Shown: positions 1 to 22,227, counted from the first letter of the stretch. The stretch: 32,000 nucleotides of DNA from Candidatus Iainarchaeum sp. (GCA_016205145.1 JACQJH010000001.1:300001-332000), one strand, 5' to 3'. The notes: a model not told the origin generated them from the letters alone. Numbers and translations are program-made.

Positions 1-1116
1 GATGTCCGGTGCGCCCGGAAGCGAGGCGGCAAGCCGGGCATTCGACTGCGCGATTTTGCACACGCGCCTTTTCACCATCGTTGTTATCCTCTGCCGCAGA
101 TCGGACTGGTTGGACTGGCTTGCAGGATAATTGAAATTGTCGTTTGGGTCTGAGGCATTGCACATTCCGCGCTGCTGCATGTCCGGCGTGCACGGCACGG
201 TTATGTTGCCTGTGAAACAGCTGCTGCCCGGAGTGCCCGCAATCCTGTCGGTTTGCGGCGCAGTGAAAGGGTTTGTGCGCCAGTTGCAAACGCTTTCATC
301 GCACATCCCCAATTGAATCTGCTCTATTTCATTGTGCACGCGCGGCGAAAACAATCCGAAATCCGCGCCGGTGTTGTCCTCGCCGTAATCGTGCGCAAAA
401 CTTTTCGCGATTGCTATTGCCCTGAAAATCCTCAGTGGAACGTAAATCTTGAAATTGGTTCTCGGCAAAATCGATTCCTTGCGCACGTTGCCCCTGCCGT
501 CCGACACCACTATTTTTGGAAGGCTTTCGAATTCCGCGTCCGTAAGCCCTGACATGTTGAGGTTCACGTAAAACGTGCCCTGCCCGCAGTCATCCGGGTT
601 TCCGTCAGGGCAGCCGACGACGCTGAAAAAGTTTCCCGCGTTCACGCTGTTCCTCACTGCGGAGGCAAGAACCGGTTTTGTGGAATCCGCGTTGCCTTCC
701 AGGCTTATCGCATATTCCGCGAAAAAGCTTGGAGTAGATTCAAGCAATACCTGCAGATCGTTCGCCATGAAGTCGACAAAGCGCGTGCTTGTCGCGTCGC
801 CGAAATTCGCCCTTGCGAAATCCTGCTGTATTTCCTGCCACGACCTGTCTTCCAGGTTCAAGGTGTAATAGTTTGTAGGCGAGGAAAGCCAGTTTGAAAT
901 CGTCTTGCGCAGAGTGTAATTGAAGGACTGCAGTGCATCCGCCTTCACAAGGTCAGTGACTGCCTTCAGCTCGGCCTGCGTCTGTATGTTGGTTATGTTC
1001 TGCTGCGCGTTCCTTTCGGTTTCAATCATGCTGTTGACGAGCAGCGCCGCCAGGAGGATGAGCATGAATGACAGCAGGGCGGTGAAAAGGTTGAATGCTC
1101 GCTGGTTCAATTGCAA
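1..1116 (-). CDS. Partial CDS (3' end off the left edge): Cys-rich extracellular protein with a type IV pilin-like hydrophobic N-terminus
   Basis: Absent from the supplied ORF track because it runs off the window. I translated the reverse complement codon by codon, and it is open from the in-frame stop at 1144-1146 down to nt 1 (>370 codons). No in-frame ATG lies upstream of or within the hydrophobic N-terminal helix (the first ATGs are Met codons inside and just after it); candidate starts are TTG 1116, TTG 1110 and GTG 1134. The N-terminus reads (L)QLNQRAFNLFTALLSFMLILLAALLVNSMIETERNAQQ, a short polar head followed by a ~20-aa hydrophobic helix. The remainder is polar with at least 8 Cys (GCPDGNPDDCGQG, GMCDESVCNW, SSCFTGNITVPCTPDMQQRGMCN). 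Start codon is uncertain. Confidence 0.55.
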   Translation of the reverse strand, partial: MQLNQRAFNLFTALLSFMLILLAALLVNSMIETERNAQQNITNIQTQAELKAVTDLVKADALQSFNYTLRKTISNWLSSPTNYYTLNLEDRSWQEIQQDFARANFGDATSTRFVDFMANDLQVLLESTPSFFAEYAISLEGNADSTKPVLASAVRNSVNAGNFFSVVGCPDGNPDDCGQGTFYVNLNMSGLTDAEFESLPKIVVSDGRGNVRKESILPRTNFKIYVPLRIFRAIAIAKSFAHDYGEDNTGADFGLFSPRVHNEIEQIQLGMCDESVCNWRTNPFTAPQTDRIAGTPGSSCFTGNITVPCTPDMQQRGMCNASDPNDNFNYPASQSNQSDLRQRITTMVKRRVCKIAQSNARLAASLPGAPDI

Positions 1117-1276
1117 AACCGGAAAGATTAACACAGTTGAAGATTAAAAAGTTTGTCCGCGTTCGCCCGCCGGCCGTTCAGGCGCCGTCGCAGAAGGACT
1201 CTGCCTTGTTTCAACAGGCGGATGAATTCCTGTATGCGCCGGCGCGTTTTTCAATTGCAAACCCGTTTAACGAACC

Positions 1277-1299: not shown

Positions 1300-4200
1300 T
1301 CAGCATTTGAAAGTGCACTTGTAACTGTTCGCGCCGTCCCTGGTGTAAAGGTGCAGGCCGTTTCCCAAATCGCGCGGAAACCCCGTCGGCTCGGAAACCA
1401 ACCTGTTTGTTGAAGTGCAGCCGTGCCCGATGATGTTCCCTTCGGCAATGTTGTATTTTGCGGCAAGGCCCTGCACGAGCTGTTTCACTGCCTGCTGCTG
1501 TGCCGGGGGATAGGAATCAGAGCCGTTGCCCATGTTGACTATTTCTATTCCTATTGACCTTCCGTTCACGCAGTTTGCGTGCCAAGCCTTCTTGTCTTCG
1601 GGAATCACTTCGACTATTTCGCCCTGCTTTCCGACAATGTAATGCGAGCTTGCCTGGTGGGAGTCGGCCCACCAGCTTAACGCGCCGGAAATGTTCCCGC
1701 CCGCGGTGTGATGCAGGACTATAGTGTCAATCCGCGTGCCGTTCCTTGAACTCGAATTCGACTGCACTGATTTTGCCTGGCTTGCGGAAACAAAGTTTGT
1801 CATGGGAACGGTTTTGACATTGCCACTCAGTTCAGCTGAAGTTTTTTTTTTATCCGCAGGCTCCTGCATTGCGCCCTGCTGGCTCCGCCATTTTGCGACG
1901 TCGGCTTTCACGTTGCGGATGTATGCCCCGGTGTCGTTTTCGCTTGACGGCGCATAAATTGGCAGTATGTCGTCAACGGTTGTTTTGCCCTGCGGGAAAT
2001 AATGCTTTGAGGTTTTGATGTAAGCGAACCACGCCTCTATTCCGCCCTGCCATGAATTCCATCCGCAAAAGGCTCCGCTCATGAAATCGTATTTGATTGT
2101 GCTTTGCGGGCATTTTATGTTTCCGACGCTTTTTGTTTTATTTGCGACCCCGAATTTTCCGTATGTTGATTCCTGCTTGAAGAACGCAAGCGCGATTGCG
2201 TTGTCAATGCCGTACTGCTGGCCGTATTGCACGAAATATTTTCCTGTTCCTGCTGCGGGAGAGCCTGCGCTTGCAAGGATTTGGTCCACGAATTCGGCTG
2301 AAAGGCACGGCCTCTCGCTCAGCATTGAAAGTTTTTCGCCCTGCTTGGGCGGGGCGCAGCCGCCGGTTGCAACATTCGCGGTTCCGCCCTGGCCTGCGCC
2401 CGCACCTGCAGCGCTTTCAGCGGCCACAACGCTGTAGCGTTTCCATTCCTGGTATTTTTCGACAACCCATTTTGCCAGCGGGGAAGAGTTTTTCGGGTCA
2501 AGGGTTTTGGCGAATTCAGCCAAAGCATTTTCCGTGCTCCCCGTCTGGGTTTTGAGCTGTGCAAGCAACTGCGCTGTTTGCAGTATTGATTCCGGCGCGA
2601 GGATTTTTTCGCGCTGCTGCGAAGCCTGGCTTTGCGCCTGGCCTGCGGCAAGAGTAATTGTTCCGGTGACAGGGGTTTTCGTTTCCGCTTTTTCCTGCGT
2701 TTTCTCAGCCTCCGCCGCGTCAACGCCTTTCGCCTTCATTTCCGCAAGCACTGCAGCCATTATCGCAGCTTCTTCCACTTCGGTCTGGTCGGAAGCTGAT
2801 GCAATTGCTTTCTGCGCTTCCGGGTCATAATAAATTTTCATTTCCTGCGGGTCTGCGCCCGCTTCAACCGTCGGCAGCAATGAGCCGAAAACCGTGCTCA
2901 GGGTCCTTTGCGCGAATTCTCCTTTGCAGTCCGAGTCAAGGCGCTTTGCCTTTCCGCTTTTCAGCTCTTCCTGCATCTGGCTGAACTGCTCTGCGCCCTG
3001 AACTTCAACTATCGTCGTTGTTGCACCGCTGCCGCCATCGCCTTTCGCTGTCTTGACAATCCTGTAAGTGTGGTTTTTCTTGAGAATCACTTCAAGGCTG
3101 TCGCCCAACACTTTGCCTGTTTCGGGGTCGATTTCCTTTGCCCCGCCGTTTATTTCATCAATGCCCTTGTCCGGCGCCTTGAACATGTTTTTCATCCACT
3201 GGTCATAGCCTTCCATGCCGGCTGCAACCGAGAGCACGCTACAGCCAAGGCCTTTCGCCAGATCCCAGAACCGTTTCCTGCTGAAAGTGTCCCTCAAATT
3301 GCGCTTGAGCGCGTCAAGCCTGCCGAGTTTTGCGGCGTCGTCCAATGCAGAGGTGGCGCTTCCGCTTAGCGTGGATTCGGTAATCTGCCTGAGCGCAGCA
3401 TCGTCGAACAACGCGCCCCTCACAACCTGCCTGTCAAGGCTGTCAGCGCTTGAACCCAAAATTCTTCTCATTTCATCCTGCGACAAAGCCGCCTTTATCC
3501 TGAAAGCGCCGCCATCCCATTCTGGCGCTGTTGCAGTGCTGCTGAACGCGGTTTCAAGCCTTCTGCTTATCTGCTCCCTGAGCGGTGCCCTGAGCCCGTC
3601 GATTTTTGCGGCCTGCTCTACTGAAACGCTGTTTTTCAATTGCGCCATCACGTCATCCGTGAGTTCGTCGGCGAACGCGCCAACCCTGCCGCCGATTTTG
3701 ATGTTGTTGCCTGCAGTTTCAATCAATTGGTCCATTTCAGCTGCGCTTACAATCCTTGAAGTTCCGCTGCCTGCGGCGGTTTCAATCAATGGCCTGCCGC
3801 TTGTGGCGTCGATTCCTGTTATCAGTCTTCCATCCCTTGTCACTTGCCCGACCGGGTCCCATTCCAGGCCGGTTGCCTTGAAATTGAATTCAGCAGGCAA
3901 TGCAGTGTCGCCAACGGCTTTCTGCAATGGCGCTCTTGCAGACGCGTCGATCTGGTCCAACAGGTTTGTTCTCAGGGCCGGAGTTCCGCGCAAGCTTCTG
4001 AGTTGCGGGTCCCTCAGGAGGGTCGTGCCAACCTCGCTCAGGAGTGTGTCAGAGCCCTGCAAAGCGTTCTTGGCCGCAGTGTCGATTGATATTTTGGGGT
4101 CGAGCCTGTGCGCTTCCAGAATCCTTTTTTCCATTGCGCCCTTGAAAGTGCCTTTGAACTGCGCAAAGCCGCGGTTCTCGCTTTTTGCGACAAGCGCGTC

Positions 4201-7200
4201 AGCCCATCTTGCCGAAACAATGTCTGCCTGCTGTTCGAAGCTTAGGGTTTCAAGTCCCCTTGTAAGCGTTCTCACCGTGGCGCCGCCAACCGCCGCGTCA
4301 AGCAGCGCGTCCCTGTTGTCCTGGCTCTGCGGAGTGTCGAGGAATGAAAGCTGGTCCGCGCTTATTCCCTGCAAGTCCTTGCCTCCAAACCATGTTTTGA
4401 GTCCGTCAAACTGCCTTTGCATGAACGCCTTTGCGTCCTCGCCTTTTTCAAACGTGTCCGCTGCGGCAATCGACGCGGGCAAAACGCAGTTCAGGCCCAC
4501 ATCCCACAATGCGCCCACACCCGCCTTTGTCATCCCGCCGCAAATCGCTGCCGCTACACTGCACGGTGCCAGGAACCCTGCTTCAATCGCCTTTCTTTTT
4601 TCCGCATTCAATTGTTCCTTGTAGGTTTTCTGCTTGTCCAATGCCGGCCCGCCGGGAGTGCTGATTGCCTTGTTTGCCGCATCCAATGCCTTCTGCCTTG
4701 CCAAAGCCTTTGCCACATCCGCCAGGCTCACTGTTTCCGGCTGGCCTTTCCATCCGACCGTTGCATAATACGTGCCCGGCTCCATGCCGACAATTTTTTT
4801 GAGCAGGTCTTCCGGATGGATTCCGCAAACGCTGAATTTTACGTTGAAGGAATTGCTTTCAAGCAGTCCTTCGGAAACCCATTCGGATGGCTTTTTGTCC
4901 GCGCTTGCTCCGGATGCAGTGCCTCCCTGTGATCCGGAATTGTTTCCTGTTGCCTGCTGTGCTGATTGCGTTGAGCCGGATTCCTGCGTTTGTGCATTTG
5001 CCGTGCCATAACTGCCCGGGGCCTGCAGCCTTGCGATTGAAACAGTTGCAACCGCCTCATTCAGTGGCTGTGCGTTTGCCGTGGACGCGCCAGCCCTTTT
5101 TATCTGAACGCTTTTCGCCTTCACGTTCACATAAGGCGAGGTGGTCTGCGCCGCCAAAACAAACTGGTCGTTGCCGGAAACGCATAATTTGAAATCGTAT
5201 TTGTAGTTGCCGGTTTTCGCGTCCTTCGCGAGTTCGATTGTCTGGGTTGAAGGGATTTCTTTTCCGTCGGCCGAGCGCAATTGCACTGAATCTATTCCTG
5301 TTTTGTCCTCGTGCGTTTCCCAGTCCTGCGACAGGCGCACTTTCTGCGGGACTTCCGCCACAACCTTCAATTGCGCGCAGTTTTCGCCCACGTAAAGCGT
5401 TACGTTCTCGTCGCCCTCTATTTTGAGGCTTCCGACCTGTGAAAAGCTTTTTATGAGCAGATAGCTTTCGTCCTTTGAAATGCAGCCGTCAACCTGGTGC
5501 TGTGTGAGTTCGGCGATTGCCTTTGCCGCTTCCGATGCGATGTTTCCGGAAGTCGAAAGCGCAGTGCCTTGCGTCTGCTCCGCGGGCTGTGTTGCATTGC
5601 CCGCGTTCTGCGCCTGCGCCTTTGCAACGAAAACAGTGCCCGTCATTCCGGGATGCAAGGTGCACTTGTAATCGAATTTGCCTTCCTCGGTGAAAGTGTG
5701 CGATGTCGCCTCGTTTGCCTTGAGTTTCACGTTGAAGCCGATGGACTCGATTGTAACTGTGTGCTCGACAGTGTCGTTGTTCACCCATTCAACGGTCTGT
5801 CCGGGCTGGATGTTGACTGTTGACGGGCTGAACTTCAAGTCCTTTATGTTGATTGTGATGTCTGCTGCGGGCAGCTGTCCCTGCGTTGCATTGCCCGGCG
5901 CCTGTCCCGCGGGCGGGGCAGCTGCAGGGGTTTGCGTTTGCGTGGGCTGCGTTGGCGCAGTCGTGCCTGTTTGCGTTCCGCCTGGCGCCTGCAGCATTGC
6001 AGTTCCATTGCCCTGCCAGTTCAATGATTGCGATTTTGCGGTTGCGGGCTGCTGTGCATTCTGGCCTGGCGGCGTTGCCGGAACATTCGTGCTGCCGGTT
6101 TTCTGGCTTTCCGCTTTCTTTTTTTCAGAATAAACTTTCGGGATCGTCGCGAACACTGTTTTCGGTTCGTCTGATTTTTCGGTTTTTTCTATTTCAAGCT
6201 TGACCAGGCTGCCGTTGGTTTCTCCGGCCTTGATGACAATCTTGTTTCCGCCTGCCGTGCGCGCAACCCTCTGCTCCGAACCGAAAAGGCTTTGCGAAAA
6301 GCTTTTCCCGATTTCTTCAAGGCCTTCTTCCGGCTGGACCATGCCGGGCCAGGAGCCGAAGCTTTGGCTTTGCGAATAGCTTTTGTCTATCGGCAAAAAG
6401 TTGGAAACGTTCTGCACGGCATTCAGGCATTCGCCTGTCACTTTCCTTTCGCTTTCATGCCTGACAAGCAGTACAAAGCTGTCCTTGATGATCTGGCCGT
6501 TCTTGACCTGCACCGCGCCTTTCACGGAAAGCAGGTATCTGCCGCAGCCTTTGAGCGGCTTTGACATGATTACCTGTTTTGTGAGGCCGGTCGCGGCAAT
6601 GTCCGATATTTCCTGTTCGCTTGTTTCGCCGGCCTGGATCTTGTAGCCTTTCAGTTCGGAAATGTTTTCGGTTTTGACTGCGTTTTCAATGCCTGCGCTT
6701 GTGACAAAGTCGTTCTGCAGGAAAACCGGGAACGGAGTCGAGGCAACGTTCATGTTCGAAAACGTGCAGTAATCCTTTCCCTGCCCGCAGCCCGCAAAGC
6801 TTTTCGCATCCGCTGATGATGCTGAAATCCTTTCCTGCGCCTGCTTCACAGCATCCTGCATTTTTTTCGCCAAAAACTTTGCAGCTGTTTCAGCGTCGCA
6901 GTAGCCCTCGGAACAGTTGTCCTGCGAAAGCAGCGGGAATGAAACCTTTGCCGTGCCATCAGCGTCGCAGTAAGGCAGTTCTATTTCGGATGTCTTGACT
7001 CCCGCGCCTTCAACAGCTTTTTCCCCGAGGCTGATCCTGAAGGGAAGGGCATTGCTTTCCATGAACTTCTGGCTTCGGATGAGCAGGCCGATTGCCTTTA
7101 TGCTGCCGGTTTCGTTTGAATAATCCTGTTTTTTCTGCAGCAACAGCTGGAATTTAGCTTCCGAATTCGGCGCCAGTATGGGGGTTGCAAGCGGGCTCAG

Positions 7201-10200
7201 CACAAGGGTGTTGCGCCCGAATTCCTTGGGCGCAATGTCGACTATCCTGATTTCTTCCGCGCATTCGTTCCTGATTGTAAGCTCTTTCGCTATCGTGCCG
7301 AACCTGCTTTCCTCGCTTTCGAATGCCGTGTCGTCGGAGAACGCCTTGAGGCACTTGAAGCCTGACACGTTCGCCCAGACGTCGATTGACTTGAACGCTA
7401 TTCTTGGCAGCCCCCCGCCATACGTTTCAAGGCTTGAAATCCTCTGCGCCTGCAGCTGGCTTGCCGCAAAGGCGTTGTAGCCGTACTGCTGTGCCGGGTC
7501 AAACGTTTCGCTTTGGCCTGCCAGTGCCGGCGAAGAAAAGCCGTAAGGGTACGATTGCACTGGCGTTGCGGACTCTTCCGTTGCGCCGTTGATTATTATC
7601 TGCCCGCGCAATGGCCTGTCAAAGCTCTTGTCCTGGCCGGTTTCCGCTATGACAAAGCGCGGGGGCAAAAGCACCTGCCCCGGCTTGAGCGATTCGAGTC
7701 CGGCTGTTTTCGGCATCACGTCCAGGGTTATGCCGTTCTGCCCTATTTCCATCGGGCTCACTGAAAAGCTGAGCGCCCTGATTTCAAACGGCGAAACGTT
7801 TTCAACGTGCAGTTGCGCTGCAGCAGTCGCTTTCTGCGCCTGCCTGTCGTGGCTGAGGAAGAGAACGATTGTGTCGTTCGAGGCGATTGAAAAGCGGCTG
7901 TCCCACAGCACAACTTTCAATGGCACGGATTTCGCGATTGAATCTGATTCAAGTATGACCGTGAACTGCCTTTCCTCTTTCTGCGGCAAAAACCTTTCAA
8001 CGCGGTTGCTCAATGTTATCGTGAAGGTTTTTGTCTCATCCTTTTTCAGGGTGATTGGCTGGGCCAGAACCTGGAGTGCGGGATCGTTTTTTTTCGCCAG
8101 AACCTTTGCCTGCAGTTCAAGGTCTGTGCCGCACCTGTTCTCGACCTGCAAGTCAAGGTTCTTGTTCGCGCCCGCAGTGCCGAGCAGATAGGCCTGCAGG
8201 CTTTCCCTGTCAAGCCTCAGGCAGCCGGATGGAAGGCTCTTGTTGTAGTACACCTTTATCCTGCCCTTCGCGCCCGTCATCTGCCTTCCGCCGGCAAGGC
8301 CTTTCACAATGATGTCCGCTTCGCCGAAAAGCGAGGCGCTTTCGGGTCCGGAATATTTTGCGGAAACCGATGCCTGGCTTGACTGCGATTGCGCAAGGCT
8401 TTCCGGCACCGATGCGGTCAGCTGGATTTCCTGCGGAAAGCCCGGCCCCGGGACCATTTCGTATGAAATGTTTTCAATGCCATAGCGCGAGAGGTTGCGC
8501 AATGCAATGAATGCGCTCGCCTCCTTTGTCTGCTTGTTTATGCTGAGGGTTATTTCCTGCGGAGTCAACTGCAATGAATCGAGCCCGCCGATTGCCATGG
8601 CCAGGGACTTCGGAGAATAGCCTTCAGCCGAAACTTCTGCGGTGTAGGCGCCTGCAGTGAAAGCGCCCCTGAAAAGGAATTCGCCGTTCCTGCCGGAGCC
8701 GATGCCTGAATTGCCGGCAACGCTTGCAACAACCCTTCCGCGGTCGTCCTTCAACTGCACCAATGCGTTTTCAACGCTCTTCAATGTCTGCGCGTCCTTA
8801 ACTGAAACAGTGAAGCTTTCGCCCGCCAGAATGGTTTCAGGCCTTACGCTGACGTCAAGGCCTTTTTCCTCGAAAATGTTGAATGAGAATTCCTGCGGCA
8901 CAACTGCCTGCCCGGCAATGACCTGCGTTTTTATGGACGCGCTTCCGCCCGCAACAGTGCGGAAGAAAACCGATGCCTTGGCGCTTTCCTGTCCGGCGAC
9001 GCTTATGCCTGAAACTTCGATCGAGGTTTCATTTCCGTTCGTGTCGGGAAAGTTTTCCGCCGTTCCTTTCGCGCTTCCGGTGAAGAAGAGCTTCGGGTCG
9101 GTTTTCGAAGTGTCTGCTTTGACAGTGACGCTCGCCGGTTCGCTTGCAAGCAAGCCGATTTCAAGCGCGAATTTCCTGTTCGCTGCAGGCTTGAAGTCCT
9201 GCGGCAGGATCTGCGCGCCATTGTCAGCGACAAACTTGTACGTGAGGCAGACCGGCCCCTGGCACAATGCGTCGGATTCGAAAACAAGCAGGCCAAGGGT
9301 TTTTGTTTCCGCGTACAATCCGAGCCTGTTGCGGTTGAACTCGTCTCCGCCGAGAACGCTGTCCTCCGGGTCCCTGAAATAATTCGGCCCCCCCACAGCC
9401 CATGCTCGGTAATGGAATTCGGTTTCCTTTGCCTGCGAGCCCGGCTTCAGCATCACCTTGACCCTGATGACTGCAGTATCAGCCGGCTTGTCGAATGAAA
9501 GCTCAAGCCATTTGCCGGGCTGGCCCGGCCTTGAAAGGTTTTTCCTGTCAACGCCCTCGTTGCCCGGCGAGGGCGTGGCATTGTAAGTCGAGCCGAACGC
9601 GGCCTTTGCGCCGGTTGCGTCATAGCCGTAAATGCCTGTGTCCTGCGCATCAACGAACTTCACGTTGTCCGGCCCCGCCCTGAAATGTATCCCTGATTTG
9701 AAGTTTTCGCCCGGCCATTTGGCCTCGAATTCAAGCCAGTAAAACTTTCCCGGCACTATGCCTTGAACCGGCTGGTTCCTTTCATTGAGAATGCGCACGA
9801 ACCTTATTTCCGGCTCTATGCCCGCGGCGCCCGAAACCCCTTCATCGCCGGCCCTGACTTCCGCGGAATTCTGTTCGTCAAGCGAAACCTTTGCAGCCAG
9901 CGTCTTTCCGTCCGGGGTTTTTATCTGCACGCTGAAATCCTTTTTGCCCCTGTTGTCAAACAGCACTTTGCCGTTCTCGATGTTGCCGTCAAAAACGTTT
10001 TCGCCGTTCGCCGAGATTATGGAAATGGTTCCGCTTAACGGCAATCCGTCAGCGTCAACAAGAATGAGTTCAGCAACGGATGCGGACTTCTGCAAAGTTA
10101 TCCTGACGGCATTGCGCTTGTTCGCCTCGATTGTTTTCCTTCCATCCCCTTCTTCAATGCCCCTTTTCGCCTTCACAAGAATGGTCTTGTTCACGGGCGC

Positions 10201-11634
10201 CCTCACTGATGCAAAGCCTGCCACGTCCGCAGTGAGGGCAGGAATCCCCAACGGAAGAACCGTTTCATCAGGCAGAATCTCGTAAAATGAAACCGTTGCG
10301 TTGTTCGCCGGCACGCCGTCTGAATCCTTTATGTATGCTTCAAGCGTCGAGGCGTTCTGGCCCGAAACCGGAACGAGATTCAGCCTCGCTTCCTTTGCCG
10401 TTGCCAGGTCGACCTTTTCGGCAACGGGCAGATAGTTTTCAATGAAGCCCGTCACAACCAGCTTTTTTCCCGGCTCAAGGCCTGAAAACTCGGAGAGGCC
10501 GCCGAAACCAGTCGGCTTTGACGCAAGCACTGTCGTTCCATTCGCATCAAAAACCTGCACTATGACATCCGGCAATGGAATGCTGTTCGAATAAGCCGTG
10601 ACCGAAAGCTTTTCGCCGCCCTTTTTGAGCTGCACTTCAAACTGTTCCTCGCCCTTCCTGATTGTCAGCGCTTTGCCATCCAACAGAGAATCATATTCAA
10701 GATAGCCGTCCTTTGAAACTATTATCCTCGCGGAAACGCCCCTCTCCACGTCCAGTACAGCCGTGCCGTCAGCCGCAATGGTGTCGCTCACAACAATGTC
10801 CTTTTCCTTGTCCTTGACCGTTACCTTCGCGCCCTTCACAAGCTCTTTTGTGGAATCGTCGAAAACCGAGACTATGAGCTTGGACGTTCCCTGCAATGCA
10901 ACGCTTCTCGGACTCAATGGAACGCTTCTTTCCTCATTTCCGGAAAAAGACATTGGCTGCTGCAAGTCCTCATAGCCGTCGGCTGAAATCGAGACAAGCA
11001 GTTCCTCGTTTTCCGGCACTGCATTGAGGACAAAGCTGCCGTTGCCGTCTGGAATGGCCTGGAAAGTCGTTTCCGCGGCATCCCATTCAGCGACAATCTG
11101 CGCGCCGCTAATCCTGTCCTGTGTTCCGGAATCAACGAGAACAATTTTTGCGTTGACGAGATTCCTGTTTTTTTCAAGGCTCAGACGCACCGGAATGCTT
11201 GCCGAAGTCACTGCAGCAGATGCCTCCGCGCTCTTATACCCGGATTTTTCCCCGACTATCCGGATTGCCGTGCCAACCGGAATGCCTTTCAGTTCGATTG
11301 CGCCGGAACCGCTGACAGCCGATTCGCCCAGCTTGTCGCCCGAAACATTGTCGAACACTGTTACCTTGACGCCGCTCAAAGAAGCCTTCAAATCATCGGC
11401 AATGGAAATGTTGACCTTTGCGTCAATCCTGCCGCCGACAAACAGCAATCCGAATGCCAGGGCAATGACCAGAAGCAGGACGCCGATTGTGAACGGCAGG
11501 CTTGGAATGCCCCTGTTTTCAAGCGCATCGACATAGCCGTAAACCGGAATGCCCTTGGCGTCAAGCGCGTCGAGAAAGCCATACCACTTGTCCTCGACGC
11601 CCGCGTAAAACGAGCCGATTTTTTCAGACAGCAT
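1300..11634 (-). CDS. Giant (3,444 aa) N-terminally membrane-anchored surface protein: six CarboxypepD_reg/PEGA-like repeats, many beta-sandwich modules, a cupredoxin domain, a helical module, and a C-terminal GH73 glucosaminidase + Amidase_2 (N-acetylmuramoyl-L-alanine amidase)
   Basis: Single uninterrupted 10,335-nt ORF with ATG at 11632-11634. One TM helix lies at aa 46-68. Domain motifs are listed in the sub-features below. All plus-strand ORFs in this interval are compositionally odd antisense shadows. Confidence 0.9.
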   Translation of the reverse strand: MLSEKIGSFYAGVEDKWYGFLDALDAKGIPVYGYVDALENRGIPSLPFTIGVLLLVIALAFGLLFVGGRIDAKVNISIADDLKASLSGVKVTVFDNVSGDKLGESAVSGSGAIELKGIPVGTAIRIVGEKSGYKSAEASAAVTSASIPVRLSLEKNRNLVNAKIVLVDSGTQDRISGAQIVAEWDAAETTFQAIPDGNGSFVLNAVPENEELLVSISADGYEDLQQPMSFSGNEERSVPLSPRSVALQGTSKLIVSVFDDSTKELVKGAKVTVKDKEKDIVVSDTIAADGTAVLDVERGVSARIIVSKDGYLEYDSLLDGKALTIRKGEEQFEVQLKKGGEKLSVTAYSNSIPLPDVIVQVFDANGTTVLASKPTGFGGLSEFSGLEPGKKLVVTGFIENYLPVAEKVDLATAKEARLNLVPVSGQNASTLEAYIKDSDGVPANNATVSFYEILPDETVLPLGIPALTADVAGFASVRAPVNKTILVKAKRGIEEGDGRKTIEANKRNAVRITLQKSASVAELILVDADGLPLSGTISIISANGENVFDGNIENGKVLFDNRGKKDFSVQIKTPDGKTLAAKVSLDEQNSAEVRAGDEGVSGAAGIEPEIRFVRILNERNQPVQGIVPGKFYWLEFEAKWPGENFKSGIHFRAGPDNVKFVDAQDTGIYGYDATGAKAAFGSTYNATPSPGNEGVDRKNLSRPGQPGKWLELSFDKPADTAVIRVKVMLKPGSQAKETEFHYRAWAVGGPNYFRDPEDSVLGGDEFNRNRLGLYAETKTLGLLVFESDALCQGPVCLTYKFVADNGAQILPQDFKPAANRKFALEIGLLASEPASVTVKADTSKTDPKLFFTGSAKGTAENFPDTNGNETSIEVSGISVAGQESAKASVFFRTVAGGSASIKTQVIAGQAVVPQEFSFNIFEEKGLDVSVRPETILAGESFTVSVKDAQTLKSVENALVQLKDDRGRVVASVAGNSGIGSGRNGEFLFRGAFTAGAYTAEVSAEGYSPKSLAMAIGGLDSLQLTPQEITLSINKQTKEASAFIALRNLSRYGIENISYEMVPGPGFPQEIQLTASVPESLAQSQSSQASVSAKYSGPESASLFGEADIIVKGLAGGRQMTGAKGRIKVYYNKSLPSGCLRLDRESLQAYLLGTAGANKNLDLQVENRCGTDLELQAKVLAKKNDPALQVLAQPITLKKDETKTFTITLSNRVERFLPQKEERQFTVILESDSIAKSVPLKVVLWDSRFSIASNDTIVLFLSHDRQAQKATAAAQLHVENVSPFEIRALSFSVSPMEIGQNGITLDVMPKTAGLESLKPGQVLLPPRFVIAETGQDKSFDRPLRGQIIINGATEESATPVQSYPYGFSSPALAGQSETFDPAQQYGYNAFAASQLQAQRISSLETYGGGLPRIAFKSIDVWANVSGFKCLKAFSDDTAFESEESRFGTIAKELTIRNECAEEIRIVDIAPKEFGRNTLVLSPLATPILAPNSEAKFQLLLQKKQDYSNETGSIKAIGLLIRSQKFMESNALPFRISLGEKAVEGAGVKTSEIELPYCDADGTAKVSFPLLSQDNCSEGYCDAETAAKFLAKKMQDAVKQAQERISASSADAKSFAGCGQGKDYCTFSNMNVASTPFPVFLQNDFVTSAGIENAVKTENISELKGYKIQAGETSEQEISDIAATGLTKQVIMSKPLKGCGRYLLSVKGAVQVKNGQIIKDSFVLLVRHESERKVTGECLNAVQNVSNFLPIDKSYSQSQSFGSWPGMVQPEEGLEEIGKSFSQSLFGSEQRVARTAGGNKIVIKAGETNGSLVKLEIEKTEKSDEPKTVFATIPKVYSEKKKAESQKTGSTNVPATPPGQNAQQPATAKSQSLNWQGNGTAMLQAPGGTQTGTTAPTQPTQTQTPAAAPPAGQAPGNATQGQLPAADITINIKDLKFSPSTVNIQPGQTVEWVNNDTVEHTVTIESIGFNVKLKANEATSHTFTEEGKFDYKCTLHPGMTGTVFVAKAQAQNAGNATQPAEQTQGTALSTSGNIASEAAKAIAELTQHQVDGCISKDESYLLIKSFSQVGSLKIEGDENVTLYVGENCAQLKVVAEVPQKVRLSQDWETHEDKTGIDSVQLRSADGKEIPSTQTIELAKDAKTGNYKYDFKLCVSGNDQFVLAAQTTSPYVNVKAKSVQIKRAGASTANAQPLNEAVATVSIARLQAPGSYGTANAQTQESGSTQSAQQATGNNSGSQGGTASGASADKKPSEWVSEGLLESNSFNVKFSVCGIHPEDLLKKIVGMEPGTYYATVGWKGQPETVSLADVAKALARQKALDAANKAISTPGGPALDKQKTYKEQLNAEKRKAIEAGFLAPCSVAAAICGGMTKAGVGALWDVGLNCVLPASIAAADTFEKGEDAKAFMQRQFDGLKTWFGGKDLQGISADQLSFLDTPQSQDNRDALLDAAVGGATVRTLTRGLETLSFEQQADIVSARWADALVAKSENRGFAQFKGTFKGAMEKRILEAHRLDPKISIDTAAKNALQGSDTLLSEVGTTLLRDPQLRSLRGTPALRTNLLDQIDASARAPLQKAVGDTALPAEFNFKATGLEWDPVGQVTRDGRLITGIDATSGRPLIETAAGSGTSRIVSAAEMDQLIETAGNNIKIGGRVGAFADELTDDVMAQLKNSVSVEQAAKIDGLRAPLREQISRRLETAFSSTATAPEWDGGAFRIKAALSQDEMRRILGSSADSLDRQVVRGALFDDAALRQITESTLSGSATSALDDAAKLGRLDALKRNLRDTFSRKRFWDLAKGLGCSVLSVAAGMEGYDQWMKNMFKAPDKGIDEINGGAKEIDPETGKVLGDSLEVILKKNHTYRIVKTAKGDGGSGATTTIVEVQGAEQFSQMQEELKSGKAKRLDSDCKGEFAQRTLSTVFGSLLPTVEAGADPQEMKIYYDPEAQKAIASASDQTEVEEAAIMAAVLAEMKAKGVDAAEAEKTQEKAETKTPVTGTITLAAGQAQSQASQQREKILAPESILQTAQLLAQLKTQTGSTENALAEFAKTLDPKNSSPLAKWVVEKYQEWKRYSVVAAESAAGAGAGQGGTANVATGGCAPPKQGEKLSMLSERPCLSAEFVDQILASAGSPAAGTGKYFVQYGQQYGIDNAIALAFFKQESTYGKFGVANKTKSVGNIKCPQSTIKYDFMSGAFCGWNSWQGGIEAWFAYIKTSKHYFPQGKTTVDDILPIYAPSSENDTGAYIRNVKADVAKWRSQQGAMQEPADKKKTSAELSGNVKTVPMTNFVSASQAKSVQSNSSSRNGTRIDTIVLHHTAGGNISGALSWWADSHQASSHYIVGKQGEIVEVIPEDKKAWHANCVNGRSIGIEIVNMGNGSDSYPPAQQQAVKQLVQGLAAKYNIAEGNIIGHGCTSTNRLVSEPTGFPRDLGNGLHLYTRDGANSYKCTFKC
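1303..1740 (-). other. Amidase_2 (PGRP / T7-lysozyme-type N-acetylmuramoyl-L-alanine amidase) domain, last 145 aa of the giant protein
   Basis: TRIDTIVLHHTAG...SSHYIVGKQGEIVEVIPEDKKAWHA...GRSIGIEIVN...QQAVKQLVQGLAAKYNI...NIIGHGCTS. This matches the HHTA / SxHY / AWHA / GIE / GH motif order typical of Pfam Amidase_2 (PF01510). The position of the third zinc ligand is not clear by eye. Confidence 0.8.
1842..1851 (-). repeat. A10 homopolymer (coding sense) in the linker between the GH73 and Amidase_2 domains
   Basis: The plus strand reads g-tttttttttt-a. In coding sense this is GAT AAA AAA AAA ACT (D-K-K-K-T). It is the longest homopolymer I found inside any CDS in the window. Confidence 0.9.
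1879..2360 (-). other. GH73 / Glucosaminidase (mannosyl-glycoprotein endo-beta-N-acetylglucosaminidase, FlgJ/AcmA/Atl-GL type) domain of the giant protein
   Basis: GGCAPPKQ...RPCLSAEF...IDNAIALAFFKQESTYGKFG...SVGNIKC...FCGWNSWQGGIEAWFAYIKTSKHY...ILPIYAPSSENDT. This resembles the family pattern ESGWG...NNLFGIK...FRxYxSxxxSxxDYxxLL of PF01832. It is paralogous to the N-terminal domain of the 12314-14725 protein. Confidence 0.75.
5624..5860 (-). other. Cupredoxin (type 1 blue-copper, amicyanin/plastocyanin-like) domain embedded in the giant protein
   Basis: ITINIKDLKFSPSTVNIQPGQTVEWVNNDTVEHTVTIES...SHTFTEEGKFDYKCTLHPGMTGTVFV. Putative ligands are His in VEHTV and the C-terminal loop C-T-L-H-P-G-M, which has the same C-x2-H-x2-M spacing as the amicyanin loop CTPHPFM. 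The domain is flanked on both sides by P/T/Q/A-rich low-complexity linkers. Confidence 0.8.
9850..11421 (-). other. Six tandem ~80-90 aa CarboxypepD_reg/PEGA-like beta-sandwich repeats (aa ~72-595 of the giant protein)
   Basis: A recurrent pattern occurs six times: 'VKVTVFDNVSGDKL...', 'AKIVLVDSGTQDRISGAQIV...ADGYE', 'VKGAKVTVKD...VSKDGYLEY', 'DVIVQVFDANGT...', 'NATVSFYEILPD...', 'AELILVDADGLPLSGTISI...'. Each is a short strand, a D/N-x-G turn and G-[YF] near the end. Confidence 0.65.
11431..11499 (-). other. Single N-terminal transmembrane anchor of the giant protein
   Basis: LPFTIGVLLLVIALAFGLLFVGG (aa 46-68), preceded by a 45-aa polar head and followed by R-I-D-A-K. No signal-peptidase-like A-x-A site is evident, so a signal-anchor is likely. 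Confidence 0.75.
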
Positions 11635-11699: not shown

Positions 11700-12230
11700 T
11701 TATCGCCGCAGGAATTGGCATTTTATTTTTCCCGTCGCCCACAAAAACCACAAAGCGTAGAATCCGGCGATGACAACAAACAATGTCAGCCTGAACAGGA
11801 CGTTGTGCGTGAATTCAACCAGCTGCAAATCCCCGCCAGCGGAAATCACTGCAACCGTTATTGCAATGCGCGCGATGTTGAAAGCGAATGCGACTGCAAC
11901 CCCCACAAATGCGCCCGCAACTCTTTTCTTCCACGAAATGCCCCAGGAAGAAAGAATTGCAGCCACAATAATCAGGGTTTCGGTTTTGCCCGTGCAAAGT
12001 TCTGAAATCTGCGCGACAACGCCGTTCGAAAACTGCATCAGCACCGGTTCCTGCAAAACGATTTTTCCTGAAAAGCCGAAAAGAGAAAGCACGAGCATCA
12101 CGGCATTCGCCACAAGCGCTTCGATTGCCTGCAACGGCAGCAGGATGCCCGACAAAAACAGGATTGCAATGTACGCGGCCGCGAAAGTCAGGACGAACCT
12201 TCCGGCTTTTTTCGCTTCTTCAACATCCAA
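11700..12230 (-). CDS. Small (176 aa) exosortase/archaeosortase-family transpeptidase-like membrane protein
   Basis: Polytopic hydrophobic protein carrying the family's three signature residues in order: Cys79 in ISELCTGKTETL (the CSG/CTG motif), Arg121 in AFNIARIA (the N-x-x-R-I motif), and His142 in EFTHNVLF. There is no ATG near the 5' end; the first canonical start is TTG at 12228-12230, with an upstream in-frame stop about 40 nt away. Confidence 0.8.
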   Translation of the reverse strand: MDVEEAKKAGRFVLTFAAAYIAILFLSGILLPLQAIEALVANAVMLVLSLFGFSGKIVLQEPVLMQFSNGVVAQISELCTGKTETLIIVAAILSSWGISWKKRVAGAFVGVAVAFAFNIARIAITVAVISAGGDLQLVEFTHNVLFRLTLFVVIAGFYALWFLWATGKIKCQFLRR

Positions 12231-17220: not shown

Positions 17221-17233
17221 AGGTTTTTTTGAA

Positions 17234-19969: not shown

Positions 19970-20081
19970 CCGTTCCGCCGGTTCCCTTTTTTACGAAAAC
20001 GCTTAAATAGTAGTTTCGGGCTTTTACATAGCAAATCAAATGGTTGTTTTCAGGGTGATTTTTTTGGTGCGAAAGTTTTCC

Positions 20082-20645: not shown

Positions 20646-20728
20646 AGCCGCTTCTGTTTTTTTTTCCCGGCGGCTTGTTTTTTTCCTCCCGTCTCCCCGT
20701 TTTTTTTCTTCCGCCTGCCTTGTTTTTT
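20646..20728 (+). terminator. Compound oligo-T terminator region (T9, T7, T8, T6) with one hairpin
   Basis: T runs at 20657-20665, 20678-20684, 20700-20707 and 20723-20728. AGCCGC...GCGGCT pairs across the first T run. Oligo-T tracts in the non-template strand are the known archaeal termination signal. Confidence 0.65.
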
Positions 20729-20738
20729 CCTGCTAAAC

Positions 20739-20748: not shown

Positions 20749-20772
20749 AACTTTCTCTTTCTATTATTCTGC

Positions 20773-20952: not shown

Positions 20953-20956
20953 CATT

Positions 20957-22215: not shown

Positions 22216-22227
22216 AAAGGTTTTTTT

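What the first reader, a model, noticed from the sequence alone, without database searches (positions are those of the whole stretch)
1300..11634. 3,444-aa giant protein that places a bifunctional murein-lytic head at the far end of a very long membrane-anchored tether
Seen in sequence, in N-to-C order: a 45-aa polar head, one TM helix, six CarboxypepD_reg/PEGA-like repeats, and more than 1,500 aa of further beta-rich modules (for example LDLQVENRCGTDLELQAKV..., ELTIRNECAEEIRIVDIAPKEF...). These are followed by P/T/Q-rich linkers, a cupredoxin, a ~900-aa helical region, then GH73 and Amidase_2 as the last ~350 aa. There is no C-terminal anchor.

Established knowledge: GH73 plus Amidase_2 are the two activities of the staphylococcal autolysin Atl (there in the order amidase then glucosaminidase). 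Horizontal acquisition of a bacterial lysozyme by an archaeon as an antibacterial weapon has precedent (a GH25 muramidase in Aciduliprofundum).

Inference: the architecture suggests a reach-out enzyme displayed distally from the archaeal membrane rather than a freely diffusing lysin. The protein might also be proteolytically processed to release the head.
Basis: partly seen in the sequence, partly recalled or inferred. Interest (0 to 1): 0.85.

Follow-up and report, generated by a model that had tools for sequence, protein, structure and literature searches.

The report
Giant archaeal protein with murein-cutting tip
A 3,444-residue surface protein of an uncultivated DPANN archaeon (Iainarchaeota) carries two enzymes that cut bacterial cell wall, added to the far end of a conserved giant protein of a pilus gene cluster, which suggests that this archaeon attacks or docks onto bacteria by contact.

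Summary
The ORF is real: 1300..11634, minus strand, 3,444 aa. It is identical to NCBI MBI4052691.1 from a Candidatus Diapherotrites (Iainarchaeota) MAG. A separate Logan assembly reproduces window 1-4536 exactly, across the junction to the lytic head.

Confirmed parts: one N-terminal TM helix, Amidase_2, a cupredoxin with all four type-1 copper ligands, a divergent GH73-like domain with its catalytic Glu, and no C-terminal anchor.

New context: residues 1 to about 3076 belong to a giant-protein family (2,500-2,960 aa) found only in Iainarchaeota. Wherever the adjacent DNA is held, its gene lies in an archaeal type IV pilus-like locus with a FlaI-like ATPase, a TadC-like platform, pilins with class III signals, and an archaeosortase-family gene.

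About 30 relatives lack the head and the cupredoxin. Two others (P0061, P0172) gained lytic heads at different junctions, and P0061's amidase belongs to a different subfamily. Unrelated giant archaeal proteins also end in such heads. The window also encodes a secreted paralogous GH73-like protein at the head of the operon.

Best reading: a contact-dependent device that breaches murein on a bacterial partner or prey. It is a new variant of the known giant DPANN murein-lytic proteins. Enzyme activity, tethering and the target are all inferred.

The parts
1300..11634 (-). Giant ORF, 3,444 aa plus stop codon
   Evidence: Identical to NCBI MBI4052691.1.
11494..11634 (-). N-terminal 47 aa. Holds a tandem motif Y-x-x-[LV]-D-x-L-x-x-[KR]-G-I-P (residues 18-30 and 32-44). 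This is the most conserved part of the family, and [KR]G directly precedes the TM helix.
11437..11493 (-). The only strong TM helix, residues 48-66
   Evidence: Kyte-Doolittle 2.89; 2.2-3.6 in 16 of 16 relatives
9820..11427 (-). Six repeats of about 88 aa (residues 70-605). Repeats 1-3 are CarboxypepD_reg-like. Repeats 4-6 give only faint Ig/prealbumin-like hits.
6100..9819 (-). Conserved body, residues 606-1845, with conserved Cys pairs and one more CarboxypepD_reg-like domain at 926-1030. No solved relative was found.
5530..6099 (-). Insert specific to this window: P/T/Q linker, cupredoxin, second linker (residues 1846-2035). Alignment occupancy among family members is about 6%.
5626..5889 (-). 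Cupredoxin of the amicyanin/plastocyanin type, with ligands H1958, C1991, H1994 and M1997
5050..5529 (-). Conserved family module after the insert (residues 2036-2195, '...VDGCISKDESYLLIK...')
2455..4884 (-). Mostly helical region (residues 2251-3060), conserved in the family. It includes a Cys-rich, moderately hydrophobic hairpin at 2345-2395 and the ancestral C-terminal module, which ends '...EKYQEWKRYSVVAAES'.
2335..2454 (-). End of the family scaffold, then a Gly/Ala-rich linker to the head (residues 3061-3100). The fusion point is at about residue 3076.
1870..2334 (-). Divergent GH73-like (lysozyme-like) domain, residues 3101-3255, with catalytic-motif Glu E3155 and Y3227 in 'IYAPSSENDT'
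1765..1869 (-). Polar linker between the two enzyme domains (residues 3256-3290)
   Evidence: pLDDT below 50
1375..1764 (-). Amidase_2 domain, residues 3291-3420. H3308, Y3332, E3364 and H3404 are kept. The third ligand region reads 'RLVSEP' (E3415).
1303..1374 (-). C-terminal tail with C3440 and C3444. No TM helix and no sorting signal.
11700..12230 (-). Exosortase/archaeosortase-family gene (176 aa). C79, R121 and H142 are conserved. An orthologue lies immediately upstream of the giant's orthologue in 19 of the first 22 related loci, and also in L024.
12314..14725 (-). Secreted 803-aa protein: Sec signal peptide, GH73-like domain paralogous to the giant's (about 50% identical), then beta-rich, FN3-looking modules (by eye; no Pfam hit). 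It is the first gene of the operon and is absent from the related loci.
   Evidence: P0062 is identical
14938..17220 (+). FlaI/TadA-like secretion ATPase, 63-70% identical to those of full-length Iainarchaeota relatives
17120..19525 (+). TadC/T2SSF-like platform protein
19538..23534 (+). Seven small proteins with N-terminal hydrophobic helices; four carry a clear class III (pilin-type) signal ('[KR]GQ' plus hydrophobic helix)
   Evidence: the same array is seen
1..1131 (-). The first 372 aa of a pilin-like protein of about 560 aa ('[KR][GA]FNLFTAL...'). It follows the giant in 16 loci. Here the gene runs off the window.
26429..31030 (+). 1,533-aa secreted protein with a C-terminal tripartite sorting signal ('FNLPSLPES', then a TM helix, then 'RFSRRTGP'). 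It is a likely archaeosortase target and has a homologue in L023.

Best explanation
The gene encodes a member of a giant surface-protein family specific to Iainarchaeota. The family belongs to an archaeal type IV pilus-like surface apparatus.

In this lineage the complete scaffold (residues 1 to about 3076) has been extended at its distal C-terminus by two peptidoglycan hydrolases: a GH73-like glycosidase and an Amidase_2 MurNAc-L-Ala amidase. A type-1 copper cupredoxin has also been inserted mid-chain.

The proposed mechanism is as follows. The N-terminal hydrophobic helix holds the protein in the archaeal membrane or in the pilus-like filament. The beta-rich body and the helical region project the C-terminus outwards. 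On contact with a bacterium, the head cuts both the glycan strand and the stem-peptide link of murein. This opens the sacculus locally, for attachment, for penetration by pili, or for lysis and feeding. The co-transcribed secreted GH73-like protein helps.

Shown: the ORF, the domain identities, retention of most catalytic residues, the archaeal origin, the conserved synteny, the add-on nature of the head, and recurrent independent fusions.

Inferred: extracellular topology, tethering rather than release, enzymatic activity, and a bacterial target.
For: - Domains: Amidase_2 at 100 bits. The GH73-like profile hits LytB, Atl and FlgJ. The AF2 model of the head has pLDDT 75 and matches LytB 7pj3 (4.9e-6), AmpDh2 and AmiD by Foldseek.
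- Catalytic residues: E3155 is invariant in the domain family. H3308, Y3332, E3364 and H3404 are kept. The unusual '[KR]x2-3[DS]EP[TR]G' tail is conserved in five other proteins, which argues for selection rather than decay.
- Scaffold: homologues of 2,500-2,960 aa occur only in Iainarchaeota. Where the adjacent DNA is held, they lie beside the ATPase, platform, pilin and archaeosortase-family genes.
- Add-on: none of the first 22 related loci, nor 6 further metagenome loci, carries a head, a cupredoxin or the 803-aa enzyme. The head starts just after the ancestral C-terminus.
- Recurrence: P0061 (GH73-like plus a different Amidase_2 subfamily) and P0172 (GH73-like only) are family members with different fusion junctions, and each one's nearest relatives are unarmed. 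Unrelated giant proteins also end in these heads; P0104's gene context is clearly archaeal, while the origin of the others was not established.
- Foreign target: archaea make no murein (established knowledge), so the hydrolases have no self substrate.
- A second, secreted GH73-like paralogue sits at the head of the same operon.
- Assembly: an independent contig is identical across the junction.
- Literature: archaeal PG hydrolases kill bacteria (PMC12352652). Giant DPANN lytic-transglycosylase proteins have been proposed for attachment to bacteria (PMC8204110). Pili from ultrasmall cells have been seen entering host cells (PMC7906910).
Against: - No activity, localisation or expression data exist.
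- GH73 is below the Pfam gathering score (19.3 and 24.8 against 30.2 bits).
- The canonical third zinc ligand (D/C) and the catalytic Lys of Amidase_2 are not at their usual positions, and that segment has low confidence in the model (pLDDT below 50 from residue 3410).
- No known cell-wall-binding domain was found.
- The helix at 48-66 could be a cleavable signal, because small residues follow it. The protein could then be released.
- Low-complexity linkers would allow proteolytic release of the head.
- No bacterial partner is known.
- Only about 3 of 30 family members are armed, so the scaffold's core function does not depend on murein.
Confidence: 0.5

Rival explanations
1. Released lysin. 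The giant is a carrier or precursor. The head is cut off at the Gly/Ala-rich or polar linkers, or the whole protein is shed after signal-peptidase cleavage. The head then acts as a diffusible bacteriolytic enzyme, like the secreted archaeal PG hydrolases Woldo and Danwoldo.
For: - Low-complexity, low-pLDDT linkers lie at 3061-3100 and 3256-3290.
- Small residues (GG) follow the TM helix.
- The same operon already encodes a freely secreted GH73-like enzyme.
- Secreted archaeal PG hydrolases are documented (PMC12352652).
Against: - The head is fused three times independently to the distal end of the same 2,700-aa scaffold, when a simple signal peptide would suffice for secretion.
- No processing-protease gene or cleavage motif was identified.
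Confidence: 0.2
2. Nutrient scavenging. A surface-tethered enzyme pair digests murein debris or muropeptides from dead bacteria, so that a metabolically limited DPANN cell can harvest amino sugars and amino acids close to its surface. No live target is involved.
For: - The closest solved relatives of the Amidase_2 domain (AmpDh2, AmiD, AmpD) include muropeptide-recycling enzymes.
- A second secreted GH73-like enzyme is present.
- Use of peptidoglycan from dead cells has been proposed for DPANN (PMC11537232).
Against: - The head sits on a conserved protein of a pilus/adhesion locus, not on a generic exo-enzyme.
- Uptake and catabolic genes for MurNAc or GlcNAc could not be examined, and none lies in the window.
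Confidence: 0.15
3. Adhesion module rather than enzyme. One or both head domains are catalytically impaired and serve as murein-recognition modules, like non-catalytic PGRPs. They would dock the archaeon onto bacterial walls.
For: - The canonical third zinc ligand and the Lys are missing, and the C-terminal segment of the amidase is poorly modelled.
- GH73 is below the Pfam cut-off.
- No separate wall-binding domain is present, so the head itself would have to bind.
Against: - The GH73 Glu, both His ligands and the Glu and Tyr of the amidase are kept.
- The 'EP[TR]G' Glu is conserved in five relatives and can plausibly ligate zinc.
- P0061 carries a fully canonical amidase at the same position.
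Confidence: 0.1
4. Artefact. The long ORF is a chimeric or collapsed assembly that joins an archaeal surface-protein gene to a bacterial or phage lysin gene.
For: - The source is a MAG.
- The head's nearest sequence relatives include short bacterial-type hydrolases and phage endolysins.
Against: - An independent Logan contig is 100% identical over window 1-4536, across the junction and into the next conserved gene.
- GC, GC3 and codon use are uniform, and there are no repeats.
- Synteny continues on both sides of the gene.
- The same architecture occurs in two other Iainarchaeota contigs.
Confidence: 0.02

Closest known systems
Giant extracellular murein-like lytic transglycosylase proteins of Pacearchaeota and Woesearchaeota (fam00969, up to about 3,000 aa; PMC8204110; also noted in PMC9723730 and PMC10936187)
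   Same: Very large extracellular proteins of DPANN archaea that carry a bacterial-type murein-cleaving domain. They have been proposed to bind or degrade the walls of bacterial hosts.
   Different: - The phylum here is Iainarchaeota.
- The catalytic modules are GH73-like plus Amidase_2 (two bond specificities), not GH23/SLT.
- The scaffold is a conserved protein of a type IV pilus-like locus that is usually unarmed.
- A cupredoxin is inserted.
- I did not test homology of the scaffolds. P0102 and P0160, which have an SLT-like motif (read by eye) plus Amidase_2, may belong to that group.
Secreted archaeal peptidoglycan hydrolases (Woldo and Danwoldo of Halogranum salarium, PMC12352652; GH25 lysozyme of Aciduliprofundum, cited there as Metcalf 2014)
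   Same: Murein hydrolases of bacterial type in archaea, with a patchy phylogenetic distribution. They are interpreted, and in part shown, to be antibacterial.
   Different: - Those are small secreted enzymes with wall-binding domains and Sec or Tat signals.
- This one is the tip of a 3,444-aa protein and has no recognisable wall-binding domain.
- It would therefore have been missed by that survey's filter, which required both a catalytic and a binding domain.
Staphylococcal bifunctional autolysin Atl/AtlE (amidase plus GH73 glucosaminidase)
   Same: The same two enzyme families in one polypeptide. AtlE and Atl structures are among the sequence and Foldseek matches.
   Different: - The domain order is reversed.
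- Atl acts on the producer's own wall, has repeat wall-binding domains, and is processed into two enzymes.
- Here the producer has no murein.
Specialised lytic enzymes of trans-envelope machines and phage virions (FlgJ GH73 of flagella; tail or tape-measure-associated lysins)
   Same: A murein hydrolase attached to a long structural element, so that it opens a local hole where the machine must pass. The GH73-like profile hits FlgJ and a 1,295-aa phage Gp29.
   Different: - FlgJ-type enzymes cut the producer's own sacculus.
- Phage lysins sit on virions.
- There is no homology outside the catalytic domain.
Large adhesin-like proteins and modular pilins of type IV pilus systems (archaeal loci in PMC4858521; bacterial PilY1 and modular pilins, from my own knowledge)
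   Same: A large surface protein encoded within a type IV pilus locus, with an N-terminal hydrophobic helix preceded by [KR]G. A functional module sits at the distal end.
   Different: - The leader is 42 aa long and highly conserved, unlike ordinary class III signals.
- No prepilin peptidase lies in the window.
- Incorporation into a filament is untested.
- I know of no pilus-associated protein that carries murein hydrolases aimed at another cell.

Membership tests
Amidase_2 (PF01510; N-acetylmuramoyl-L-alanine amidase, AmpD/T7 lysozyme/PGRP fold) | Profile match above the curated cut-off | tested here: met
   100 bits against 26, residues 3299-3405. PDB hits: AmpDh2 2e-8, AmpD, AmiD.
Amidase_2 (PF01510; N-acetylmuramoyl-L-alanine amidase, AmpD/T7 lysozyme/PGRP fold) | Fold | tested here: met
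   AF2 model blocks have pLDDT 59-90 over model residues 221-330, i.e. protein ~3299-3408. Foldseek matches to AmpDh2, AmiD, AmpD and endolysins at 6e-6 to 1e-3.
Amidase_2 (PF01510; N-acetylmuramoyl-L-alanine amidase, AmpD/T7 lysozyme/PGRP fold) | Zinc triad His, His, Asp/Cys, plus catalytic Glu, Tyr and Lys | tested here: inconclusive
   H3308, H3404, E3364 and Y3332 are present. All 14 aligned relatives that reach this region, and T7 lysozyme, have D or C at the third site, whereas the window has 'RLVSEP'. E3415 and R3411 fit a motif '[KR]x2-3[DS]EP[TR]G' shared with P0063, P0065, P0102, P0104 and P0160. Coordinates of the model were not available, so ligand geometry could not be checked.
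GH73 / Glucosaminidase (PF01832) | Profile match above the curated cut-off | tested here: not met
   19.3 bits in the whole protein and 24.8 bits for the domain alone, against 30.2. All 9 members of the domain family match PF01832, with best E 2.3e-7. Several relatives carry precomputed PF01832 hits.
GH73 / Glucosaminidase (PF01832) | Lysozyme-like fold related to solved GH73 enzymes | tested here: met
   Profile A5 against the PDB: LytB 2e-4, Atl 8e-3, FlgJ 0.02, Ecd09610 glucosaminidase 5e-6. Foldseek: LytB 7pj3 4.9e-6, AtlE 8.5e-5, 8yxk 2.4e-3. Model pLDDT is 75-96 over most of the domain (one block at 61).
GH73 / Glucosaminidase (PF01832) | Catalytic Glu in the E-S/T-x-x-G helix and the downstream Tyr motif | tested here: met
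   E3155 ('FFKQESTYG') is invariant in 9 of 9 and aligns with the Glu of LytB 'ALESNWG'. Y3227 in 'IYAPSSENDT' is invariant. That this Glu is the general acid comes from my own knowledge of GH73.
GH73 / Glucosaminidase (PF01832) | Endo-beta-N-acetylglucosaminidase activity on murein | not testable with these tools
   Needs an enzyme assay and muropeptide analysis.
Type-1 copper cupredoxin (PF13473 / PF00127) | Profile match above the cut-off, and the His-Cys-His-Met ligand set | tested here: met
   40.8 bits against 27 and 39 against 21.2. Amicyanin E 4e-11, with H1958, C1991, H1994 and M1997 aligned to the amicyanin ligands.
Iainarchaeota giant surface-protein family (unnamed) | Conserved N-terminal motif plus TM helix, and colinear body through '...Y.xW..Y' at the C-terminus | tested here: met
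   E = 0 and 27-35% identity to 15 giants over roughly the first 60% of the query. The colinear alignment has occupancy above 0.9 over most of residues 1-1845 and 2050-2150, and lower occupancy (0.4-0.9) with weaker conservation beyond that. The N-terminal motif occurs in 22 loci. For the C-terminal motif.
Iainarchaeota giant surface-protein family (unnamed) | Position next to an archaeosortase-family gene, divergent from the T4P-like ATPase, platform and pilin genes | tested here: met
   In the window, the 803-aa GH73-like gene is inserted between the two blocks.
Archaeal type IV pilin-like proteins (class III signal peptide) | [KR]-[GA] cleavage site directly before a hydrophobic helix of about 20 aa at the N-terminus | tested here: inconclusive
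   [KR]G before the helix in 16 of 16. But the leader is 42 aa and the +1 to +7 positions ('IPSFPFT') are atypical. The locus's own pilins use '[KR]GQ' with short leaders.
Archaeal type IV pilin-like proteins (class III signal peptide) | Processing by a PibD/FlaK-type prepilin peptidase and assembly into a filament | not testable with these tools
   No peptidase gene lies in the window. This needs the whole genome and proteomics.
Archaeosortase substrates (PGF/PEF-CTERM-type) | C-terminal motif, TM helix and basic tail | tested here: not met
   The giant ends '...SYKCTFKC' with no TM helix. The 1,533-aa protein at 26429-31030 does have such a signal.

The most novel reading that the evidence does not exclude
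The giant is itself a substrate of the type IV pilus-like machine. Its invariant [KR]G-plus-helix N-terminus would be a long class III signal. After cleavage, the helix would plug into the filament, producing an enzyme-tipped pilus. The GH73-like and amidase head would drill through a bacterium's sacculus. The conserved Cys-rich hydrophobic hairpin (2345-2395) would then engage the bacterial membrane. This would be an archaeal contact weapon or docking harpoon against bacteria, and it would imply that some Iainarchaeota, often considered free-living, prey on or parasitise bacteria.
Probability: 0.15. Interest if true: 0.85.

Novelty: new variant of a known kind. Interest (0 to 1): 0.55.

Why it matters
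Hosts and lifestyles of most DPANN archaea are unknown. Iainarchaeota in particular are often regarded as possibly free-living (PMC10936187).

Here a conserved giant protein of a pilus locus has been armed at its distal end with murein hydrolases. This happened three times independently and with different enzyme subfamilies. That points to the C-terminus as the working end of the scaffold. It also points to bacteria as the partners or prey of some lineages.

The finding yields concrete experiments: activity of the head, the cleavage state of the protein, and imaging of cell contacts. It also gives a simple genomic marker for spotting archaea that interact with bacteria, namely the family scaffold plus a lytic head.

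It adds an architecture that the published survey of archaeal peptidoglycan hydrolases would have skipped, because that survey required a cell-wall-binding domain (PMC12352652). The head could also be a source of new antibacterial enzymes.

Tried and rejected
1. Chimeric assembly: rejected. An independent contig is identical, the composition is uniform and there are no repeats.
2. The idea that unarmed relatives end in a degenerate lysozyme-like domain (motifs such as 'ILKSGLG'): rejected. hhalign of their tails against the GH73-like profile gave probability 3%.
3. Window 1-1299 as non-coding DNA, an RNA gene, or a third decayed GH73 copy (a 31-nt repeat): rejected. Rfam and tRNA scans found nothing. 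blastx shows the conserved pilin-like gene of about 560 aa, which runs off the window and was therefore not listed as an ORF.
4. The giant as the archaeosortase substrate through its N-terminal motif: set aside. The topology is wrong for the known mechanism, and proteins with conventional C-terminal signals lie in the neighbourhood.
5. Fold of the helical region: AF2 gave pLDDT 45, so no fold search was run. A family profile against the PDB gave only weak CnaB/Ig-like hits in the N-terminal repeats.
6. Technical dead ends:
   - The single-sequence genome scan found nothing.
   - Alignment A3 was too divergent for pattern design.
   - Alignment A7 (a segment against whole proteins) was smeared and was discarded.
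   - The exact look-up of the giant failed, although the identical protein is on record.
7. PHROGs gave only generic endolysin and amidase families, with no sign of a provirus.


Full report
**1. Is it there?**

The window holds one ORF on the minus strand, 1300..11634, with an ATG start and 3,444 aa. The protein is 100% identical to P0205, which is NCBI MBI4052691.1, 'MAG: N-acetylmuramoyl-L-alanine amidase [Candidatus Diapherotrites archaeon]', on a 612,963-bp contig. NCBI places Diapherotrites under Candidatus Iainarchaeota, kingdom Nanobdellati, i.e. DPANN.

A contig assembled separately by Logan from run SRR12113385 matches window 1-4536 at 100% without gaps. It therefore crosses the helical region, the junction to the enzymes, the stop codon and the next gene. 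There are no long repeats in the gene. GC, GC3 and codon use of the head and of the cupredoxin insert resemble the rest. An assembly artefact is very unlikely.

**2. Anatomy, N to C**

- Residues 1-47 are polar. Residues 48-66 are the only strong TM helix (Kyte-Doolittle 2.89).
- Six repeats of about 88 aa follow. Pfam supports repeats 1-3 as CarboxypepD_reg, and one more such domain at 926-1030. Repeats 4-6 give only faint hits to other Ig/prealbumin-like families.
- The body up to about residue 1845 has no informative family or solved relative. It is conserved among relatives and has many invariant Cys residues.
- Residues 1846-2035 are P/T/Q-rich linkers around a cupredoxin. The cupredoxin passes two Pfam cut-offs. 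It aligns with amicyanin, with the four type-1 copper ligands in place: H1958, C1991, H1994 and M1997.
- Residues ~2251-3060 are predicted mostly helical, but the model is poor (pLDDT 45).
- The last ~350 aa are a GH73-like domain (3101-3255), a polar linker, and Amidase_2 (3291-3420).
- There is no C-terminal TM helix or sorting signal. No known wall-binding domain was found.

**3. The enzymes**

Amidase_2 is unambiguous: 100 bits against a cut-off of 26, and AmpDh2, AmpD and AmiD among solved structures.

PF01832 is below its cut-off: 19.3 bits in the whole protein and 24.8 bits for the domain alone, against 30.2. But the domain belongs to a well-defined subfamily with the consensus 'GSPAAGTGK..YGID..ALAFFK.EST...GNI...W..GIE.W...LPIYAPSSENDT.AYI.NV'.

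- All nine aligned members match PF01832.
- The subfamily profile hits LytB, Atl, FlgJ and a clostridial glucosaminidase in the PDB.
- An AF2 model of residues 3079-3444 (pLDDT 75) matches LytB, AtlE, AmpDh2, AmiD and AmpD by Foldseek.

The GH73 motif Glu (E3155) and Tyr (Y3227) are invariant.

In the amidase, H3308, Y3332, E3364 and H3404 are kept. The third zinc ligand is D or C in the 14 aligned relatives that reach this region and in T7 lysozyme, but the window reads 'RLVSEP' there. That stretch is poorly modelled. However, the motif 'GHGC[TS]x3-4[KR]x2-3[DS]EP[TR]G...C-x2-4-C' is shared with five other large proteins (P0063, P0065, P0102, P0104, P0160). E3415 and R3411 are therefore probably the subfamily's equivalents of the Asp and the Lys. 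This is an inference.

**4. Surroundings**

The whole window is a cell-surface island.

Upstream of the giant, on the same strand:
- A 176-aa exosortase/archaeosortase-family gene. It scores 38 bits on TIGR04178 against a cut-off of 23. C79, R121 and H142 are conserved in 20 orthologues.
- Before it, an 803-aa secreted protein. Its N-terminal domain is a paralogue of the giant's GH73-like domain, about 50% identical, including the flanking Cys pair.

Divergently transcribed:
- A FlaI/TadA-like ATPase and a TadC/T2SSF-like platform protein.
- Seven small proteins with N-terminal hydrophobic helices; four carry clear class III signals ('[KR]GQ' plus a hydrophobic helix).

Downstream of the giant, running off the window, is a conserved pilin-like protein of about 560 aa.

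Further on lie a 746-aa membrane protein with zinc ribbons and a 1,533-aa secreted protein. The latter has a classical C-terminal tripartite sorting signal and is a likely archaeosortase target. A CTP-dependent riboflavin kinase, the archaeal type, closes the window.

**5. Relatives**

Residues 1-3028 find 15 clear giant relatives (2,473-3,025 aa, E <= 1e-185), plus weaker hits. Those that carry a name come from Diapherotrites.

A pattern scan of GTDB species representatives found 19 loci. All are Iainarchaeum, Diapherotrites or unnamed archaeal MAGs. A metagenome scan added six more family loci.

In the loci that reach the neighbouring genes, the giant follows the archaeosortase-family gene (19 of the first 22 loci) and faces the ATPase, platform and pilin block. 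Full-length ATPase matches are 63-70% identical.

The N-terminal 65 aa are the best conserved part. They hold a duplicated 'Y..[LV]D.L..[KR]GIP' motif that abuts the helix.

None of these loci has the GH73-like domain, the amidase, the cupredoxin or the 803-aa enzyme. An alignment of C-termini shows that the window keeps the complete ancestral end ('...EKYQEWKRYSVVAAES'). In P0039, P0045 and P0037 that motif lies at the very C-terminus. The head follows it through a Gly/Ala-rich linker.

**6. The design recurs**

An exhaustive search with the head returned the window's own fragment (P0057), the neighbour (P0062), and several large proteins that end in such domains.

- P0061 (2,838 aa; its gene context includes Alba and PAC2) and P0172 (2,778 aa; NCBI 'glucosaminidase domain-containing protein [Candidatus Diapherotrites archaeon]'; same synteny) are members of the same scaffold family.
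- P0061 has a GH73-like domain 51% identical to the window's. Its Amidase_2 is from another subfamily, only 29% identical, with the canonical 'KNDP'. P0172 has only the GH73-like domain.
- Their heads join the scaffold at other, earlier points.
- Each armed protein's closest scaffold relatives are unarmed.

These are therefore three separate fusion events.

Two other families of large proteins also end in GH73-like, SLT-like (motif read by eye in P0102/P0160) and/or Amidase_2 domains. One has a signal peptide (P0099, P0114, P0178, P0104). The other has several TM helices (P0065, P0102, P0160). P0104 lies among archaeal ribosomal, TFIIB and GINS genes; the origin of the others was not established.

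**7. Mechanism**

Archaea have no murein (established knowledge), so the substrate must be foreign. The repeated, independent placement of murein hydrolases at the distal end of one scaffold argues that this end meets other cells, and that in these lineages those cells are bacteria.

I therefore favour local, contact-dependent breaching of the sacculus, by a glycosidase and an amidase acting on the two kinds of bond, helped by the co-transcribed secreted GH73-like enzyme.

Three points cannot be decided here:
- whether the protein stays in the membrane, is loaded onto the pilus-like filament (the invariant [KR]G-helix resembles a class III signal, but the leader is 42 aa), or is shed;
- whether the head is released;
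- whether the purpose is killing, feeding or docking.

The role of the cupredoxin is unknown.

**8. Comparison with what is known**

The literature already describes the following:
- Giant extracellular lytic-transglycosylase proteins in Pacearchaeota and Woesearchaeota, proposed to engage bacterial walls (PMC8204110, PMC9723730, PMC10936187).
- Secreted archaeal peptidoglycan hydrolases that kill bacteria (PMC12352652).
- Large adhesin-like proteins in archaeal type IV pilus loci (PMC4858521).
- Pili from ultrasmall cells entering host cells (PMC7906910).

The present case is a new variant. It differs in phylum, in scaffold (pilus-locus family, usually unarmed), in enzyme set (a bifunctional GH73-like plus Amidase_2 head), in having a copper domain, and in the evidence for convergent fusion. 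The gene is in GenBank under a generic amidase name. I found no paper that discusses it.

**9. Verdict**

- Novelty: new variant of a known kind.
- Interest: 0.55.

Noticed in passing
window 12314-14725 (-): An 803-aa secreted protein (Sec signal 'MKKIALAAVLLAFIALLSANAFA') with a GH73-like domain paralogous to the giant's, followed by beta-rich, FN3-looking modules (by eye; no Pfam hit). It is inserted between the ATPase and archaeosortase genes. It is absent from the first 22 related loci and the further metagenome loci searched. It is identical to P0062.
   Followed up: partly
window 11700-12230 (-); orthologues in 19 of the first 22 related loci, plus L024: A short (176 aa) exosortase/archaeosortase-family gene with the Cys-Arg-His triad conserved (C79, R121, H142). 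It immediately precedes the giant gene in the loci that reach that far, although the giant has no C-terminal sorting signal.
   Followed up: partly
window 26429-31030 (+); L023 10547-14866: A 1,533-aa secreted protein with no Pfam match that ends in a tripartite sorting signal ('FNLPSLPES', TM helix, 'RFSRRTGP'). The homologue in P0061's locus ends 'FDLPLFEG', TM helix, 'FRRY'. These are likely archaeosortase targets with a possibly undescribed C-terminal motif.
   Followed up: partly
window 11494-11634 (-), residues 1-47 of the giant: A tandem duplicated motif Y-x-x-[LV]-D-x-L-x-x-[KR]-G-I-P, whose second copy abuts the TM helix. This is the most conserved stretch of the whole family, which is unexpected for a mere signal n-region. 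Its function is unknown.
   Followed up: partly
window 4450-4600 (-), residues ~2345-2395: A conserved 45-aa segment that is moderately hydrophobic, Gly/Ala-rich and carries three conserved Cys ('..AC....C.......DC..P'). It occurs in all 16 family members. It might be a buried core or a membrane-interacting hairpin.
   Followed up: no
window 5530-6099 (-): The cupredoxin with an intact type-1 copper site, flanked by P/T/Q linkers, occurs only in this member of the family. Its best solved match is the C-terminal cupredoxin of a copper nitrite reductase (9cck, 6.7e-13). Why a surface fibre would carry a redox copper domain is unexplained.
   Followed up: partly
window 1-1131 (-): The stretch that seemed to have no ORF encodes the first 372 aa of a conserved pilin-like protein of about 560 aa ('[KR][GA]FNLFTAL...'). 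This protein follows the giant in 16 loci. The ORF list omitted it because it runs off the window.
   Followed up: yes
window 23585-25825 (-): A 746-aa protein with three N-terminal TM helices, a long Lys/Glu-rich middle and two C-terminal zinc ribbons. Partial homologues flank the pilin array in L001 and L004.
   Followed up: no
P0099, P0114, P0178, P0104 (L026); P0065 (L027), P0102, P0160: Two further families of large proteins (1,600-2,400 aa) that end in GH73-like, SLT-like (by eye) or Amidase_2 domains. P0104's context is archaeal; the origin of the others was not established. Several share the window's unusual amidase tail 'GHGC..K..[DS]EPTG...C..C'. This points to a wider, largely undescribed class of giant proteins, at least partly archaeal, tipped with murein hydrolases.
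   Followed up: partly
L024 1948-5967: In P0172's locus, a 1,339-aa Peptidase_S8 protein is inserted between the platform and ATPase genes. It is another enzyme recruited into the same surface-apparatus locus.
   Followed up: no
PDB 9vvp chain L (Gp29, 1,295 aa): The best solved sequence match of the GH73-like subfamily profile (7.6e-7) is the N-terminus of a large phage Gp29. The match covers only the 'GNI...W...YAP.ENDT.AYI' half of the domain. This hints at a link to virion-associated lysins.
   Followed up: no
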